From the human T2T-CHM13v2.0 reference genome, Homo sapiens: DNA of 64,000 bases. Below are positions 2,827 through 6,975 of this stretch, piece by piece (within the stretch, counting starts at the first letter, position 1; the number at the start of each line of letters is the position of its first letter). Under the pieces are notes generated by a model. The model was not told the origin of the DNA. It ran no database searches and saw nothing but the letters and a program-made list of their open reading frames with translations. The translations under genes and the position numbers were made by a program. The stretch is taken from assembly GCF_009914755.1 (NCBI RefSeq), contig NC_060927.1. One strand, written 5' to 3'.

Positions 2827-3057
2827 GCTTAAATAAATGACAATATTTATTTTGCTTCCAAATCTGCAGTTTGGGCAGGGCAGGGGTGGTTGAGGACAGC
2901 TCAATTCTGCTCTGCTCAGTGTCAGGCTAGAAGGCTGGGCCTGAAATCGTGTGAAGGCTCTCGCAGGTTTTCCTTTTCATATTGGCAGTTTCTTATCATT
3001 CTTATTTTATTCGGTGTTATTAGCAATGGCTACTGAAATTTTTTTTTTGTAAAGGTT

Positions 3058-3372
3058 ATTTATTTATTTATTTATTTATTTATTTATTTATGGGACAGAG
3101 TCTCACTCTGTCACCCAGGCTGGAGTGCAGTGGTGTTATCTCGGCTCACTGCAACCTCCACCTCCCAGGCCCAAGTGGTTCTCCTGCCTTGGCCTCCCGA
3201 GTAGCTGGGACCACAGATGGGTGCCACCAGGCCCAGCTAATTTTTGTAATTTTAGTAGAGAGGGAGTTTCACCATGTTGGCCAGGCTGGTCTTGAACTTC
3301 TGACCTCAGGTGATCTGCCTGCCTTGGCCTCCCAAAGTGTTGGGATTACAGGCATGAGCCACCGCGCCCGGC
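3058..3372 (-). mobile_element. AluS element with (TAAA)n tail
   Basis: Full dimer in reverse; partial TSD TAAAGGTT at 3050-3057 and 3376-3383. Confidence 0.95.
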
Positions 3373-4091
3373 ATATAAAGGTTGTTAAATGAGTATTGGG
3401 TGAACTCGTAGACGGCATCAAGGCTTGGTCAGCAGGGAGGAAGGAGCAGCAGCTGCTTGCAGGTGGACGCCAGAACTTCTAGTGCCCTCGGATCAAAGCC
3501 AGGCGAACAGACTTCTCTGAGCTTCCTTCTCGCTCTCTGGCTGTCACATGAGCTGCCTTGCCAGCCTCTCCTTCTTCCAGTCACCAGAGAGGTGCTGTTT
3601 GCTTACGTATGCCACGCCAGACCCCGAGGTGGACATATGCTGTCACTTAATTCTCCATCTGCTGCCTGCCTGGGCTGCTGCATTAATTGGGATTCTTTTG
3701 GTTGTAAGTGAGAGAAATACAACTGAAACTATTGTAGGCAGAAAGGGGATCTTACCATTTTGTGCATTCGTGAGGTGGCATGTCTAACTTAGGAACAATC
3801 CAAGAATTTCTCCATCTGCTGTAGATGGGCCCATTTCCAAAAAAGGGACAAAGTCAAAGGTCACAGCAGTTCTGGGTTAATAAGATAGGCTTCCATCCTG
3901 GCCACAACCAGAGAGGATGCTGGGAATGCTCTTCCTGGCTCCAGTCTCATGGAAGGATTCTGATTGGTCCAGCTCAGGTCACGTGCCTCTCCTCCATGGT
4001 CAGAGTCTGGGGCAAGATGTGCTAGGCAGACAGATACAGAGACAGCAGCCCTCCTTGCCTGCCTCTGCACAGTGGATCTTGACATTGGGAA

Positions 4092-4398
4092 TTTTATTTT
4101 ATTTTATTTTATTTTTGAGATAGAATCTCACTCTGTGGCCGAGGCTGGAGTGCAGTGGTGCAATCTCGGCTCACTGCAACCTCCGCCTTCCAGGTTCAAG
4201 CAATTCTCCTGCCTCAGCCTCCCAAGTAGTTGAGATTACAGGCACTCGCCACCACACCCGGCTAATTTTTGTATTTTTAGTAGAGATGGGGTTTCACCAT
4301 GTTGGCCAGGCTGGTCTCAAACTCCTGACCTCAAGTGATCCACCTGCTGCGGCCTCCCAAAGTGCTAGGATTACAGGCATGAGCCACTGTGCCTGGCT
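4092..4398 (-). mobile_element. AluS (Sx/Sz-like) element
   Basis: Full dimer, (TAAAA)n tail, TSD GACATTGGGAATTT/GACACTGGGAATTT. Confidence 0.95.
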
Positions 4399-4410
4399 GA
4401 CACTGGGAAT

Positions 4411-4691
4411 TTGAGATGGAGTCTCGGTGTATTGCCAGGCTGGAGTGCAGTGCAGAGGCATGATCTCGGCTTACTGCGATCTCCACCTCCTGGGTTCAAG
4501 CGATTCTCCTGCCTCAGCCTCCCGAGTAGCTGGGATTACAGTCATGCACCACCACTAATTTTTGTATTTTTAGTAGAGACGGGGTTTCACCATGTTGGCC
4601 AGGATGGTCTTGAACTCCTGACCTCAAGTGATCCGCTTGCCTTGGCCTTTCAAAGTGCTGGGACCACAGGCGTGAGCCACCACGCCCGGCC
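4411..4691 (-). mobile_element. AluS element with almost no A tail, in tandem with the previous Alu
   Basis: Full dimer in reverse, flanked by GACACTGGGAATTT and AACACTAGGAATTT. Confidence 0.93.
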
Positions 4692-4798
4692 AACACTAGG
4701 AATTTTAAAACGTCATGAATTTGTGATCTCTGAGCCCCGTGTGCTGCACGGTGGCTCTTGTGTTCCCCAATCTTGGGGGGTTTTGCTTCTCATTCTAG

Positions 4799-4973
4799 AT
4801 GAAGAGCATGAGTGTGGGGGACCCCCGAACCTTCCCCTTCATCGAACCCCCACCACCAGCCAGCCTGGAAGCCGCCATCCTCTACCTCCGGGACCAGGGG
4901 GCCCTGGACAGCTCAGAGGCCCTCACACCCATTGGGTCCCTGCTGGCCCAGCTGCCTGTGGACGTTGTGACTG
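4799..4973 (+). pseudogene. DHX34: Isolated duplicated exon of DEAH-box helicase DHX34 (gene fragment with flanking intron)
   Basis: 175-bp open exon between acceptor ttttgcttctcattctag and donor gtgagt; encodes [58 protein letters not shown], the winged-helix/HA2 region of DEAH helicases, recognised as DHX34; no other exons in the window. Confidence 0.85.
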
Positions 4974-5080
4974 GTGAGTACCCACCCCCCCTCGTGATCA
5001 CTCAGGGCCCCAGGAGCGGGTATGGGCACAGCTCACTCTCTGAGTGGCCTGGGGGCAAGTCTGTTTCTTCCCTGGGTCCA

Positions 5081-5177
5081 GTTCATTTATTCACTCTTCA
5101 CTGGGCCAGGCACTGTTCTAGGTGCTGGGCATATAGCAGTGGACAGAACAGACACAAATCTCTGGCCTCAGGGAGCT
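5081..5177 (-). mobile_element. L2 3'-end fragment
   Basis: ttcatttattca...gccaggcactgttctaggtgctggg...gcagtggacagaacagaca matches the reversed L2 3' terminus. Confidence 0.65.
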
Positions 5178-5849
5178 GTTCCGACTCTTTTTATTTTTTA
5201 TCCTGAAGGGAAAGATAAAGGGCGGGAAAGGGCGTCAGGCGAGGCAAGGCGAGGCGAGAGGCTCGAGATTCTAAGGCGATGGTCAGACTGACTGATGGAC
5301 CTCAGGGTGGCCCCTCTGCCCCAGGACAGGCCTAGAAGAGCATGTGACCCCCTAGGAAACACCCAGAGACTGAGCGGAGGAAACAGCTCCCAGGGGCAGA
5401 GCTCCCAGCAGGCGCAAACCCAGAGGAGCAGAGGACGATTCGGAGAAGGAAGGAAAGACTCTGGGAAGGAGCCAGGGATGACAGGAAGAGAAGGAGACGG
5501 GGAAGGGCCCTGAGGCGAGGGAGGCAGGGCCTCCGACCAGGAGCGACCAGAGGGGATGTGACAGAGACGGAAGTGACAGAAAAAGACTCCACGGTCACAG
5601 GTGGAGCAGCCGATGGCACAGGGGACTGAGGCAGGGGATGGGGATGGCGACAGGACTGGGGGAAGACAGCAACGAGGACAGTGCAGAAGTGGGATCAACA
5701 GCGACGAAGAGGATACAGTCCGAGGCAAAGGGGAGAGGACCAGAGAGAGAAGACAGTGAATCTGATGGGAGCAAACTAGAGAGGGGACGAAGACAAAGAT
5801 CCCGGGGGCCAGGACAGAGATCAAGGAGTCTAAGAAAGACGGGAGAGAC

Positions 5850-6162
5850 GGCCGAGCACGAGGGCACACCCCTGTAATCCTAGCACTTTGGGAGGCCAAG
5901 GGGCGAGATCTCTTGAGGCCAGCAGTTCGAGACCAGCCTCGCCAACATGGTGAAACTCCGTCTCCACTAAAAATACCAAAATTAGCCAGGCACGGCGGCC
6001 TGGGCCTGTAATCCCAGCTACTCGGGAGGCTGAGACAGGAGACTCGCTTGAACCCAGGAGGCTGAGGTTGCAGTGAGCCAAGATCACACCACTGCACTCC
6101 AGCCTGGGCAACAGAGCAAGGCTCGGTCTCCCCCCCCCCCCCCAGAAAAAAAAAAAAAAAAA
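5850..6162 (+). mobile_element. AluS element, C-run before the A tail
   Basis: Alu dimer starting ggccgagcacg; poly(C) then A17 tail at 6146-6162. Confidence 0.93.
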
Positions 6163-6257
6163 GATACATTGAAGTAATTTAAAAACACTTAGGAAGATGT
6201 CATTTCTTCCTATCAAGGCGTCCTCCCTTTATGTTTTGTTGTTATATAGGGAACGAT

Positions 6258-6379
6258 AAAAAAAATTTTTTTTCAACCAATGTGGACCAGGTGTTGGCTT
6301 CGAACTCGCACTCTCGAACCCTCGCCTCCCTGAAGGCCCGAGGGCAGGCGCAACCGGCCGGAGCCACAATGGCTCCGGG
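6258..6379 (-). ncRNA. SNAR-I: snaR (small NF90/ILF3-associated RNA) Pol III gene; probably the orphan paralogue SNAR-I (SNAR-H not excluded)
   Basis: Minus strand reads CCCGGAGCCATTGTGGCTCCGGCCGGTTGCGCCTGCCCTCGGGCC...GAGTTCGAAGCCAACACCTGGTCCACATTGGTTG-A8-T8, matching snaR: 5' hairpin, A box, B box, oligo(A), oligo(T) terminator. Family is firm; paralogue name is inferred from the non-chr19-like context. Confidence 0.88.
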
Positions 6380-6539
6380 TGTCGCGGCTGTCCTTTCATC
6401 CCTTTGATCTTACGCAGGGTGATGCAGCCAATCACGAGAGGCTCACCCCTGACGTCACCCAGTCCCCAGGGCCAGGGAGGGCTCTGCGTTCCATGGCGCC
6501 CCCTGGAGGGAGGAAGGGGAACTGTATCTGAGAGAGAGC
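6380..6539. promoter_or_regulatory. snaR upstream promoter module (same type as the CGB1/CGB2 promoter insertion)
   Basis: TCF/LEF CCTTTGATCT 6401-6410; NF-Y AGCCAATCA around 6428-6432; palindromic CRE TGACGTCA 6450-6457; CTCF-like CCCTCCAGGGGGCGCCA (minus) 6494-6510; CpG-rich. Confidence 0.7.
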
Positions 6540-6975
6540 ATGGCTACTGAATTTTATCAAATGCTTATCCAATATCACCATCCATACATTTTCTGATCAT
6601 GAATATTCATCCCTTACTTTAATGTACCTGAAGTACATACTTTTAATATATTTAATAGAAATTACCTGTGAATATATCTGTTCCTTCAATACTTTTCTAA
6701 GTGATCATTTCAGATTTTCCATTTATTTTTCATTCAATTGTGGTAATTACATATTTTGCCAAAAATTCATTCATTTATTTTGGTTTTCAAATGGGCTGCC
6801 ATAGAATTGCATATCATAACATATATTATTCTGTAAATACTCTCTGTAGTTAAATCTTATCTCTATTCTTTTATATTTTACTCCCTTTCTTTTGTCCTTA
6901 ATCAAGCATATGAAGGATTTGTAATTCTTATTGGATATGTCAAAAAAAAAACCTGTTGACTTATTTATCATTTGT
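6540..6975 (-). mobile_element. Old L1M ORF2 fragment (host of the cassette; continues at ~2965-3037)
   Basis: tgaattttatcaaatgctt and following antisense ORF2-like sequence; minus ORF 6771-6971 resembles L1 ORF2 remnants. Confidence 0.55.

What the first reader, a model, noticed from the sequence alone, without database searches (positions are those of the whole stretch)
3026..6551. A complete snaR Pol III gene with its promoter moved by retrotransposition inside a 3.5-kb unspliced chimeric RNA
Seen: exact 12-bp repeat ATGGCTACTGAA on both sides; a minus-strand poly(A) at one end; an L1-endonuclease-like site (minus TTGAT/AAAA at 6552-6560); a host L1M that rejoins when the insert is removed; a GC-rich insert in AT-rich DNA. 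The insert holds an intact snaR in sense, 160 bp of its upstream flank, four Alus and an antisense DHX34 exon with intron. Established: snaRs are Alu-derived, African-great-ape-specific NF90-bound Pol III RNAs clustered at 19q13.3, where DHX34 also lies, and are described as spreading mainly by segmental duplication. Inference: this copy came from target-primed reverse transcription of a long polyadenylated Pol II transcript reading through a snaR duplicon. A retrocopy of the small RNA alone would lack upstream elements, whereas this one could be active on arrival. That would be an RNA-mediated route for exporting a whole duplicon module.
Basis: partly seen in the sequence, partly recalled or inferred. 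Interest (0 to 1): 0.85.

Follow-up and report, generated by a model that had tools for sequence, protein, structure and literature searches.

The report
SNAR-I duplicon is an L1 retrocopy
The 3.5-kb block carrying the human small-RNA gene SNAR-I on chromosome 3 bears the marks of a reverse-transcribed long polyadenylated transcript, not of the DNA-level duplication described in print, and its sister copy SNAR-H on chromosome 2 bears the same marks.

Summary
ATGGCTACTGAA occurs only at 3026-3037 and 6540-6551. It brackets a GC-rich 3,502-bp insert that holds a full-length minus-strand snaR, 161 bp of its upstream flank, four Alus and a plus-strand DEAH-helicase exon.

The composition is already published as the ~3.5-kb "I-duplicon" (DHX34 "5DX" plus snaR-parent "Core"; Parrott 2011, PMC3045588). 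That paper attributes it to segmental duplication and recombination.

- The DHX34 locus is colinear up to the breakpoint but lacks the A tract.
- The minus-strand unit ends at a CA, 10 nt after the last AATAAA of an Alu tail.
- The target reads TTTT/A.
- The flanks land 11 nt apart on L1 ORF2 copies.
- SNAR-H on chr2 shares the same 5DX/parent junction. It ends 24 nt after a proximal AATAAA, carries A22 and has its own 12-bp duplication inside a colinear L1.

No colinear donor survives in T2T-CHM13. The chimerism was present in the DNA before transcription.

Ape outgroup empty sites could not be checked. Confidence is 0.85, and the interest is moderate.

The parts
3026..3037 (.). Left copy of the target-site duplication ATGGCTACTGAA. 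It may extend to about 16 nt (…TTTT) with a 1-nt indel.
   Evidence: one of only two copies in the window; 0 of 100 shuffles reached 2 matches.
3038..3048 (-). Poly(A) tail of the retrocopy (A10 on the minus strand, then one T). It is absent from the DHX34 locus.
   Evidence: the DHX34 locus reads GCTTCTAATG where the window reads T10-G. Homology starts at 3048.
3049..5178 (-). '5DX' segment, copied from DHX34 intron/exon sequence. It is antisense to DHX34 and unspliced.
   Evidence: window 3048-5178 matches chr19:50190687-50192820 (+) at 97.5% over 2142 columns. One search agrees. Named 5DX in PMC3045588.
3059..3088 (-). Seven overlapping AATAAA hexamers in the A-rich tail of the first Alu (first bases at 3088 to 3064). 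The last hexamer ends 10 nt before the tail, with cleavage at a CA.
3049..3376 (-). Alu 1 with its own flanking repeat TAAAGGTT. It is already present in the DHX34 locus.
4084..4697 (-). Alu 2 and Alu 3 in tandem, both colinear with the DHX34 locus.
   Evidence: (4115-4397 and 4411-4690, minus strand).
4799..4973 (+). DHX34-derived exon with intact AG/GT borders, antisense to the retrotransposed RNA.
   Evidence: sequence; HA2_N, E 3.1e-7; DEAH helicases in PDB.
5166..5179 (.). 5DX/snaR-parent junction, with GCTG-type microhomology. 5166 is the 3' end point of the SNAR-H copy, which keeps only 13 nt of 5DX.
   Evidence: In T2T-CHM13 the junction is found only on chr3 and chr2 (9 of 9 candidates scored).
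5190..5195 (-). Proximal AATAAA. It was read through in the SNAR-I copy and used by the SNAR-H copy (tail 24 nt downstream).
5179..6539 (-). Segment derived from the snaR parent locus (the snaR-F repeat on chr19). It includes the published 'Core'.
   Evidence: 94.7% identity to chr19:53.69 Mb (-) and 95.6% to the chr2 H-duplicon. One search gives the three-way comparison.
5861..6150 (+). Alu 4, antisense to the retrotransposed RNA.
   Evidence: (5985-6132, plus strand), and the hub's repeat mask.
6258..6378 (-). SNAR-I gene: a full-length snaR with a B-box-like GAGTTCGAAGCC (6307-6296) and a T8 terminator (6265-6258).
   Evidence: (92.1 bits, model 1-115 of 115). The paper's Table 1 marks it as transcribed.
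6379..6539 (-). 161 bp of snaR upstream flank (GC 0.62), holding TGACGTCA (6457-6450) and ATTGG (6432-6428). Position 6539 is the 5' end of the copied RNA.
6540..6551 (.). Right copy of the target-site duplication.
6552..6560 (+). L1-endonuclease-type nick site TTTT/ATCAA on the plus strand, which is the strand that primed the cDNA.
   Evidence: The consensus TTTT/AA is recalled.
6548..6566 (-). Host L1M ORF2 remnant upstream of the site (AFDKIQ motif).
   Evidence: 0 of 200 shuffles reach the score in 4 of 5 L1 loci; aligns to L1 locus nt 1760-1778.
2998..3025 (-). Host L1M ORF2 remnant downstream of the site. It continues the same L1 reading 11 nt later.
   Evidence: aligns to L1 locus nt 1790-1817 in 4 of 5 loci. 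The score alone is not above shuffles.

Best explanation
The block 3038-6539 is a retrocopy. L1 endonuclease and reverse transcriptase inserted it by target-primed reverse transcription.

Proposed history:
1. A DNA rearrangement placed at least 1.4 kb of the snaR parent locus inside DHX34 intron sequence, with 33 bp of target lost. This step follows Parrott 2011 and is supported here.
2. Pol II transcribed that locus in the snaR sense, antisense to DHX34. Transcription started at or upstream of about 160-215 bp before snaR. This step is inferred.
3. The transcript was cleaved and polyadenylated at one of two sites. The proximal site lies 24 nt after an AATAAA at the end of the parent fragment and gave SNAR-H. 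The distal site lies 2.1 kb further on, 10 nt after the last AATAAA of an Alu tail, at a CA, and gave SNAR-I. The end points are shown in the sequence.
4. L1 nicked TTTT/A inside an old L1M ORF2 on chr3 and copied the RNA, leaving a 12-16-bp target-site duplication. The marks are shown; the act is inferred.

The embedded 121-nt Pol III gene rode along intact. The source locus is no longer in T2T-CHM13.
For: - Exact 12-bp duplication, unique in the window.
- The A10 tract is not templated. The DHX34 locus is colinear at 97.5% up to window 3048 and then reads unrelated sequence with no A/T run.
- The 3' end lies at ...CCTTTACA, 10 nt after the last of 7 AATAAA hexamers.
- The nick site TTTT/A abuts the duplication.
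- At the 5' end, homology to the parent locus stops at 6540 while the parent runs on.
- Host flanks: the right flank ends in D..AFDKIQ.P, matching L1 ORF2 DAEKAFDKIQQP (0 of 200 shuffles reach the score in 4 of 5 loci). The best DNA alignments of the two flanks land at nt 1760-1778 and 1790-1817 of 4 of 5 L1 loci. That leaves room for about one copy of the duplication.
- Independent replicate, SNAR-H on chr2. It has the same 5DX/parent junction and keeps only 13 nt of 5DX. It then carries T22 that neither the I copy nor DHX34 has at that place. The tail lies 24 nt after AATAAA. A 12-bp duplication CAACAATGCAAG flanks it. Its host L1 flanks align to L1 nt 403-587 and 603-769 in 4 of 5 loci, with scores of 34-48 against a shuffle maximum of 17-23.
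- Only 103 of 3491 positions (2.95%) lie 10-30 nt after an AATAAA, and both 3' ends do.
- I and H share 24 differences from the parent, against 22 I-only and 16 H-only in 1339 columns. This fits one common source.
Against: - The direct source locus is missing. The 5DX/parent junction occurs only in I and H, and 5DX-like sequence occurs only on chr3 and at DHX34. 'Non-templated' is therefore judged against the grand-parental DHX34 locus, not the true donor.
- No ape or monkey genome was available, so a clean empty site is not shown.
- The L1M flank alignments at the chr3 site are individually no better than shuffles. Pfam found no family in either flank translation.
- The tail is short (10 A). 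A stray base lies between it and the 12-mer, which needs a 1-nt indel if the duplication is read as 16 nt.
- No promoter or transcript for the proposed Pol II RNA was observed.
- The authors who described the duplicons read the same ends as recombination at 'A/T-rich (possibly Alu)' and LINE sequence. Their Supplementary Figure S10B could not be read.
Confidence: 0.85

Rival explanations
1. DNA-level segmental duplication, the published model. A piece of a 5DX-Core-3DX intermediate was pasted into chr3 by recombination at A/T-rich or Alu-like sequence, and into chr2 at LINE sequence.
For: - Stated in PMC3045588 and PMC3337139 (passages and sections).
- Most snaR copies on chr19 do sit in tandem DNA duplicons.
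- A-type units carry Core joined to 3DX through a 10-bp filler, which is a DNA-repair-type joint.
Against: - Recombination does not predict an exact 12-bp duplication of target at both loci.
- It does not predict A tracts absent from the DHX34 locus and from the sister copy.
- It does not predict both ends falling 10 and 24 nt after AATAAA, where 2.95% of positions qualify.
- It does not predict a TTTT/A target.
- There is no homology between target and insert ends beyond 1-5 nt.
Confidence: 0.07
2. Orphan 3' transduction. This is a sub-variant of the RNA route. The transcript started in an active L1 or SVA upstream of the lost source locus and read through into it. Both insertions were 5'-truncated so far that no retroelement sequence remains.
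For: - Two retrocopies from one non-genic source with different poly(A) sites is the pattern of a 'hot' transducing element (established knowledge, recalled).
- L1 cis-preference would favour such RNAs.
- No promoter for the RNA lies inside the copies.
Against: - No L1 or SVA sequence lies at the 5' end of either copy.
- The two 5' ends lie only about 52 nt apart, at window 6539 and about 6591-equivalent. That looks more like a shared start region than random truncation of a long read-through RNA.
- The same upstream segment lies between snaR-G and the divergently oriented CGB exon. The paper places snaR-G in the CGB1/2 proximal promoter there, so a local promoter is plausible.
Confidence: 0.12
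3. Template-switch chimera. L1 reverse transcriptase started on a polyadenylated DHX34-antisense RNA and jumped to a separate snaR-locus RNA at 5178, so the chimerism arose during insertion.
For: - The two halves match loci 3.5 Mb apart.
- The joint has only GCTG-type microhomology.
- Bipartite chimeric retrocopies are a known L1 product (recalled).
Against: - The identical joint is present in SNAR-H. H cannot derive from I, because it has about 52 nt more parent sequence. I cannot derive from H, because it has 2.1 kb more 5DX.
- A-type units carry the same parent fragment joined on its other side to DHX34 sequence that starts 33 bp after the 5DX end. The fragment was therefore embedded in DHX34 DNA.
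- The 5' part does not start at the small RNA's first base but 161 nt upstream.
Confidence: 0.02

Closest known systems
The published snaR 'I-duplicon' and 'H-duplicon' (Parrott et al. 2011, Nucleic Acids Res 39:1485, PMC3045588; Parrott & Mathews 2011, PMC3337139)
   Same: This is the same object. It is a ~3.5-kb block on chr3 made of DHX34 '5DX' plus a snaR-parent 'Core', with a ~1.4-kb sister on chr2. Both are traced to a hypothetical 5DX-parent-3DX intermediate. My measured sizes are 3,502 bp and about 1,427 bp.
   Different: The papers class both blocks as segmental duplications inserted by recombination. They contrast snaR with its retrotransposing ancestors CAS and ASR. The ends analysed here point instead to poly(A) RNA and L1 target-primed reverse transcription.
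L1-mediated retrocopies of cellular Pol II transcripts (processed pseudogenes and unspliced lncRNA retrocopies)
   Same: Target-site duplication, 3' poly(A) after AATAAA, a TTTT/A target and interchromosomal dispersal.
   Different: The RNA was non-coding, unspliced and antisense to the only exon it holds. It carries a complete, separately transcribed Pol III gene.
snoRNA retroposons ('snoRT') and SVA/L1 3'-transduction gene duplicates such as the AMAC1 copies (recalled from the literature, not read here)
   Same: A small-RNA or whole gene is copied as a passenger inside a longer retrotransposed Pol II RNA and can stay functional at the new site.
   Different: The passenger here is a Pol III gene whose promoter the paper calls intragenic. 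No retroelement or host-gene intron context is evident. Two copies arose from one source by alternative polyadenylation.
snaR-12, snaR-21, CAS and ASR elements
   Same: [quoted passage not shown]
   Different: Those are copies of the small Pol III RNA alone, and snaR-12 and snaR-21 are called pseudogenes. SNAR-I and SNAR-H moved inside kilobase-long Pol II-type RNAs together with their flanks.

Membership tests
L1-mediated (TPRT) retrocopy | Target-site duplication flanking the insert | tested here: met
   Exact 12-mer at 3026-3037 and 6540-6551, unique in the window; 0 of 100 shuffles reached 2 matches.
L1-mediated (TPRT) retrocopy | 3' poly(A) tract not encoded at the donor | tested here: met
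   The DHX34 locus has no A/T run at the breakpoint. Caveat: the immediate source locus is absent from T2T-CHM13.
L1-mediated (TPRT) retrocopy | Polyadenylation signal 10-30 nt upstream of the tail | tested here: met
   The last AATAAA ends 10 nt before the tail, with cleavage at CA. Only 2.95% of positions qualify.
L1-mediated (TPRT) retrocopy | L1 endonuclease-type target (TTTT/A) at the poly(A) side | tested here: met
   The plus strand reads ...CTGAATTTT/ATCAA at 6547-6560. The consensus is recalled.
L1-mediated (TPRT) retrocopy | Empty orthologous site in outgroup species | not testable with these tools
   No primate genomes are held. As a proxy, the flanks are colinear on L1 ORF2 copies. 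The paper reports H and I in human and chimpanzee only.
L1-mediated (TPRT) retrocopy | Loss of introns (for processed pseudogenes) | tested here: not met
   Intron sequence is kept on both sides of exon 4799-4973. This is expected, because the RNA is antisense to DHX34. The insert is an unspliced retrocopy, not a processed pseudogene.
snaR family (Rfam RF02556 / RefSeq SNAR-I) | Full-length match to the covariance model at or above the gathering score | tested here: inconclusive
   Model positions 1-115 of 115 are matched, but at 92.1 bits against a gathering score of 98. For comparison: H 93.7, parent F 83, G 108.4, A-type 107 and 104. The model is built on snaR-A.
snaR family (Rfam RF02556 / RefSeq SNAR-I) | Pol III terminator and internal B-box-like element | tested here: met
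   T8 at 6265-6258 and GAGTTCGAAGCC at 6307-6296 on the minus strand. The B-box assignment is by recall.
snaR family (Rfam RF02556 / RefSeq SNAR-I) | NF90 binding and Pol III transcription | not testable with these tools
   Table 1 of PMC3045588 lists snaR-I as transcribed and co-immunoprecipitated with NF90b, citing unpublished deep sequencing.
Segmental (DNA) duplication | Extant donor colinear across the whole block and beyond its ends, with no poly(A) or target-site duplication | tested here: not met
   The two halves map 3.5 Mb apart on chr19. The junction occurs only in I and H. Both a target-site duplication and a tail are present.
Template-switch chimeric retrocopy | Junction created at the insertion event, hence private to one copy | tested here: not met
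   The same junction is present in SNAR-H. The parent fragment is flanked by DHX34 sequence on its other side in A-type units.
L1/SVA 3' transduction | Retroelement 3' end and first poly(A) at the 5' side of the transduced segment | tested here: not met
   The 5' ends of I and H lie in snaR-parent sequence. An orphan, fully truncated transduction cannot be excluded.

The most novel reading that the evidence does not exclude
The snaR module exported itself by RNA. A Pol II promoter lies just upstream of snaR, in the same GC-rich segment that faces the CGB1/2 genes in the G-duplicon. Its snaR-sense arm produced polyadenylated read-through RNAs, and L1 copied these to other chromosomes.

On this reading the near-coincident 5' ends of SNAR-H and SNAR-I mark that start region. 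The 'hypothetical intermediate' was a since-lost insertion allele of DHX34 itself rather than a separate DHX34 copy. The copy on chr3 arrived Pol III-competent and later amplified to seven copies in chimpanzee.
Probability: 0.25. Interest if true: 0.6.

Novelty: new member of a known kind. Interest (0 to 1): 0.48.

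Why it matters
snaR genes are an African-great-ape-specific, fast-evolving Pol III family, and snaR-A has been tied to cancer-cell growth (bioRxiv preprint passages). 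The standard account says snaRs stopped retrotransposing and spread by DNA duplication.

Showing that both interchromosomal copies are L1-made retrocopies of kilobase Pol II transcripts changes that account in four ways.
- It gives physical evidence that the postulated DHX34/snaR intermediate existed and was transcribed.
- It fixes two of that transcript's poly(A) sites.
- It adds a clear case of a working Pol III gene moving as a passenger in a Pol II RNA.
- It cautions that small 'segmental duplications' with A/T-rich ends may be retrocopies.

Tried and rejected
- Paralogue search for the host L1M with the right flank. The only hits were to an unrelated ~80-bp repeat at window 7416-7496. None of the 11 loci checked aligned to the insertion site.
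- Pfam on the flank translations. Repeated with stops read as X, it found 0 families for either flank.
- Whole-genome protein search with the right-flank translation. It found no L1 paralogues: 3 candidates, of which 1 was the query itself and 2 had E greater than 1.
- Motif regex over all fetched DNA. It found no other L1 RT copy.
- DNA alignment of the chr3 flanks to young L1 copies. Scores of 14-20 were not clearly above shuffles (shuffle maxima 14-22). Only the positions, not the scores, carry weight.
- The left-flank protein alignment was not significant: 57-190 of 200 shuffles reached the score.
- Dating from the I/H/parent comparison with the second parental repeat as outgroup gave non-clocklike counts: I=H derived 9, F derived 5, I 10, H 8 of 927 columns. 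Gene conversion between the parental repeats may explain this, so I draw no dates from it.
- The bioRxiv snaR-A preprint (passages only) says nothing specific on snaR-I.
- Supplementary Figure S10B of PMC3045588 shows the authors' view of the insertion sites. It is a PDF and could not be read.
- Template switching and plain DNA duplication were considered and set aside. The reasons are given under the rival explanations.

Full report
**What is there**

The window is human T2T chr3:193,688,001-193,752,000. ATGGCTACTGAA occurs twice in 64 kb, at 3026-3037 and 6540-6551, and no shuffle gave two copies.

Between the two copies lie 3,502 bp with 49-59% GC. The flanking DNA has 24-42% GC on the left (501-3000) and 27-34% on the right.

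Reading the minus strand from 6539 down to 3038, the block holds:
- 161 bp of GC-rich flank with a TGACGTCA motif.
- A full-length snaR at 6378-6258. The Rfam snaR-A model matches positions 1-115 of 115 at 92.1 bits, and a T8 terminator follows.
- One antisense Alu.
- About 680 bp of purine/pyrimidine-skewed sequence.
- 2.1 kb with two tandem sense Alus, an antisense helicase exon with both intron borders (HA2_N, E 3.1e-7) and a third sense Alu.
- A10, one T, and then the second copy of the 12-mer.

The hub table lists SNAR-I as '+'. The sequence and Rfam both place it on the minus strand.

**Where the pieces come from**

Window 3048-5178 is colinear with chr19:50,190,687-50,192,820 at 97.5%, Alus included. 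Window 5175-6540 matches the snaR parent repeat at chr19:53.69 Mb at 94.7%. Window 5166-6540 matches a block on chr2:77.96 Mb at 95.6%.

This is the published structure. Parrott et al. 2011 (PMC3045588, passages) call it the ~3.5-kb I-duplicon, made of DHX34 '5DX' plus snaR 'Core'. They call the chr2 block the ~1.4-kb H-duplicon and derive both from a hypothetical 5DX-parent-3DX intermediate.

[quoted passage not shown] They also contrast snaR, spread by segmental duplication, with its retrotransposing ancestors. The composition is therefore known, and the open question is the mechanism.

**Tests of the RNA route at the chr3 copy**

- The DHX34 locus runs colinear to window 3048 and then reads ...GCTTCTAATG, with no T-run. 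The tail is not templated there.
- On the minus strand the last templated bases are ...AATAAATAACCTTTACA. The end falls at a CA, 10 nt after the last of seven AATAAA hexamers supplied by the Alu tail.
- At the other end, the parent locus continues past 6540 with unrelated sequence.
- None of 8 donor or paralogue loci holds the 12-mer.
- The pre-insertion plus strand would read ATGGCTACTGAATTTT/ATCAA, an L1-endonuclease-type site. If the nick is placed there, the duplication is 16 nt long with a 1-nt indel in the left copy.

**The host site on chr3**

The minus strand of the right flank ends in D..AFDKIQ.P. This matches DAEKAFDKIQQP of L1 ORF2 copies fetched from the same genome (0 of 200 shuffles reach the score in 4 of 5 loci; the fifth lacks the region).

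The best DNA alignments of the right and left flanks fall at nt 1760-1778 and 1790-1817 of 4 of 5 L1 loci. The 11-nt gap is filled by the 8 remaining bases of a single duplication copy. The alignment scores alone are not above shuffles, so this is positional evidence only.

**The sister copy as a replicate**

SNAR-H carries the same 5DX/parent joint, which exists nowhere else in T2T-CHM13 (9 of 9 candidates scored). It keeps only 13 nt of 5DX and then has T22 on the plus strand. At that point the I copy and DHX34 both continue with ordinary sequence.

Its tail starts 24 nt after an AATAAA that the I transcript read through. It is flanked by CAACAATGCAAG on both sides. The right-hand flank continues CCTT/AAAG.

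Its host flanks align to L1 nt 403-587 and 603-769 in 4 of 5 L1 loci, with scores of 34-48 against a shuffle maximum of 17-23. The LINE therefore closes up when the insert and one repeat copy are removed.

Only 2.95% of positions in the unit lie 10-30 nt after an AATAAA, and both 3' ends do.

H reaches about 52 nt further into parent sequence than I, and I has 2.1 kb more 5DX. Neither can derive from the other. They share 24 differences from the parent in 1339 columns. One transcribed source with two poly(A) sites is the simplest account.

**Origin of the chimerism**

A-type array units carry the same parent fragment, ending 5 nt before the I copy's 5' end. It is joined through a 10-bp filler to DHX34 sequence that begins 33 bp after the 5DX end.

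The parent fragment was therefore embedded in DHX34 DNA on both sides. This excludes template switching during reverse transcription as the cause of the chimerism. It supports the authors' intermediate, at least as a DNA locus.

No locus with 5DX next to parent sequence, other than I and H, remains in T2T-CHM13.

Because the 5DX end in I is set by RNA 3' processing, nothing requires a separate 'copy' of DHX34. A lost insertion allele of DHX34 itself would serve. This is inference.

**Who transcribed it**

This is not shown. The RNA cannot be a Pol III product, because it starts upstream of snaR and runs through the T8 terminator.

The two 5' ends lie about 52 nt apart, roughly 160-215 bp upstream of snaR. 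In the G-duplicon the same upstream segment lies between snaR-G and a divergently oriented CGB coding exon. The paper places snaR-G in the CGB1/2 proximal promoter.

A divergent Pol II promoter is therefore plausible but inferred. An orphan L1/SVA 3' transduction remains possible.

**Present function**

The gene is full length with a terminator. Table 1 of the paper lists snaR-I as transcribed and NF90b-associated, citing unpublished data, with one human copy and seven Pan copies.

The paper describes the snaR-A promoter as intragenic.

**Age**

The 5DX part differs from DHX34 by 2.5%. By recalled genome-wide figures, this lies between human-gorilla and human-orangutan divergence. [quoted passage not shown]

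**Novelty**

Five full-text searches found no paper calling SNAR-H or SNAR-I retrocopies. The two snaR evolution papers say the opposite. Their supplementary figure on the insertion sites could not be read.

The mechanism itself, L1 copying of a polyadenylated cellular RNA with a small-RNA gene as passenger, is a known kind. I therefore file this as a new member of a known kind, of moderate interest.

Noticed in passing
window 6258-6378: The hub's gene table gives SNAR-I as '+'. The Rfam match, the terminator T-run and the 5' CCGGAGCC start are all on the minus strand. The strand in the table looks wrong or is expressed in another frame of reference.
   Followed up: yes
L014 486-1936 (chr2:77,958,824-77,960,274): SNAR-H is flanked by a 12-bp duplication CAACAATGCAAG and has a 22-nt poly(A) tail placed 24 nt after AATAAA. 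It sits inside a colinear L1 ORF2 fragment. It appears to be a second retrocopy of the same lost source.
   Followed up: yes
L017 (chr19:50.888 Mb, A-type unit), reverse-complement positions 1873-1884: The Core-to-3DX joint in the tandem-array units has a 10-bp filler, TTCAGTATCT. It lies 5 nt inside the point where the SNAR-I copy begins. Whether this closeness has a meaning is unexplained.
   Followed up: partly
L016 about 2430-2600 (chr19:52.027 Mb): A chorionic-gonadotropin-beta-type coding exon lies on the strand opposite to snaR-G, to the side of snaR's upstream flank. snaR-G and CGB are therefore divergent neighbours sharing that GC-rich segment.
   Followed up: partly
window 7416-7496: An ~80-bp stretch matches many places genome-wide at 78-91% identity (784 first-look candidates, of which 40 were scored). 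It is an interspersed repeat unrelated to the L1M host.
   Followed up: no
window 5179-5860: There is strong strand asymmetry: AT skew 0.52 and GC skew 0.25 in bin 5501-6000. This is a purine-rich stretch of the snaR parental ~1.9-kb repeat, and three tandem copies of it lie at chr19:53.692-53.697 Mb.
   Followed up: no
window 6541-6723 (minus strand): The decayed L1M ORF2 appears to lack a long stretch between its KSIEGTDIFTGNFY-type motif and the AFDKIQ motif when compared with young L1 copies. About 116 nt in the window correspond to about 395 nt in the L1 loci. This points to an old internal deletion in the host element.
   Followed up: partly
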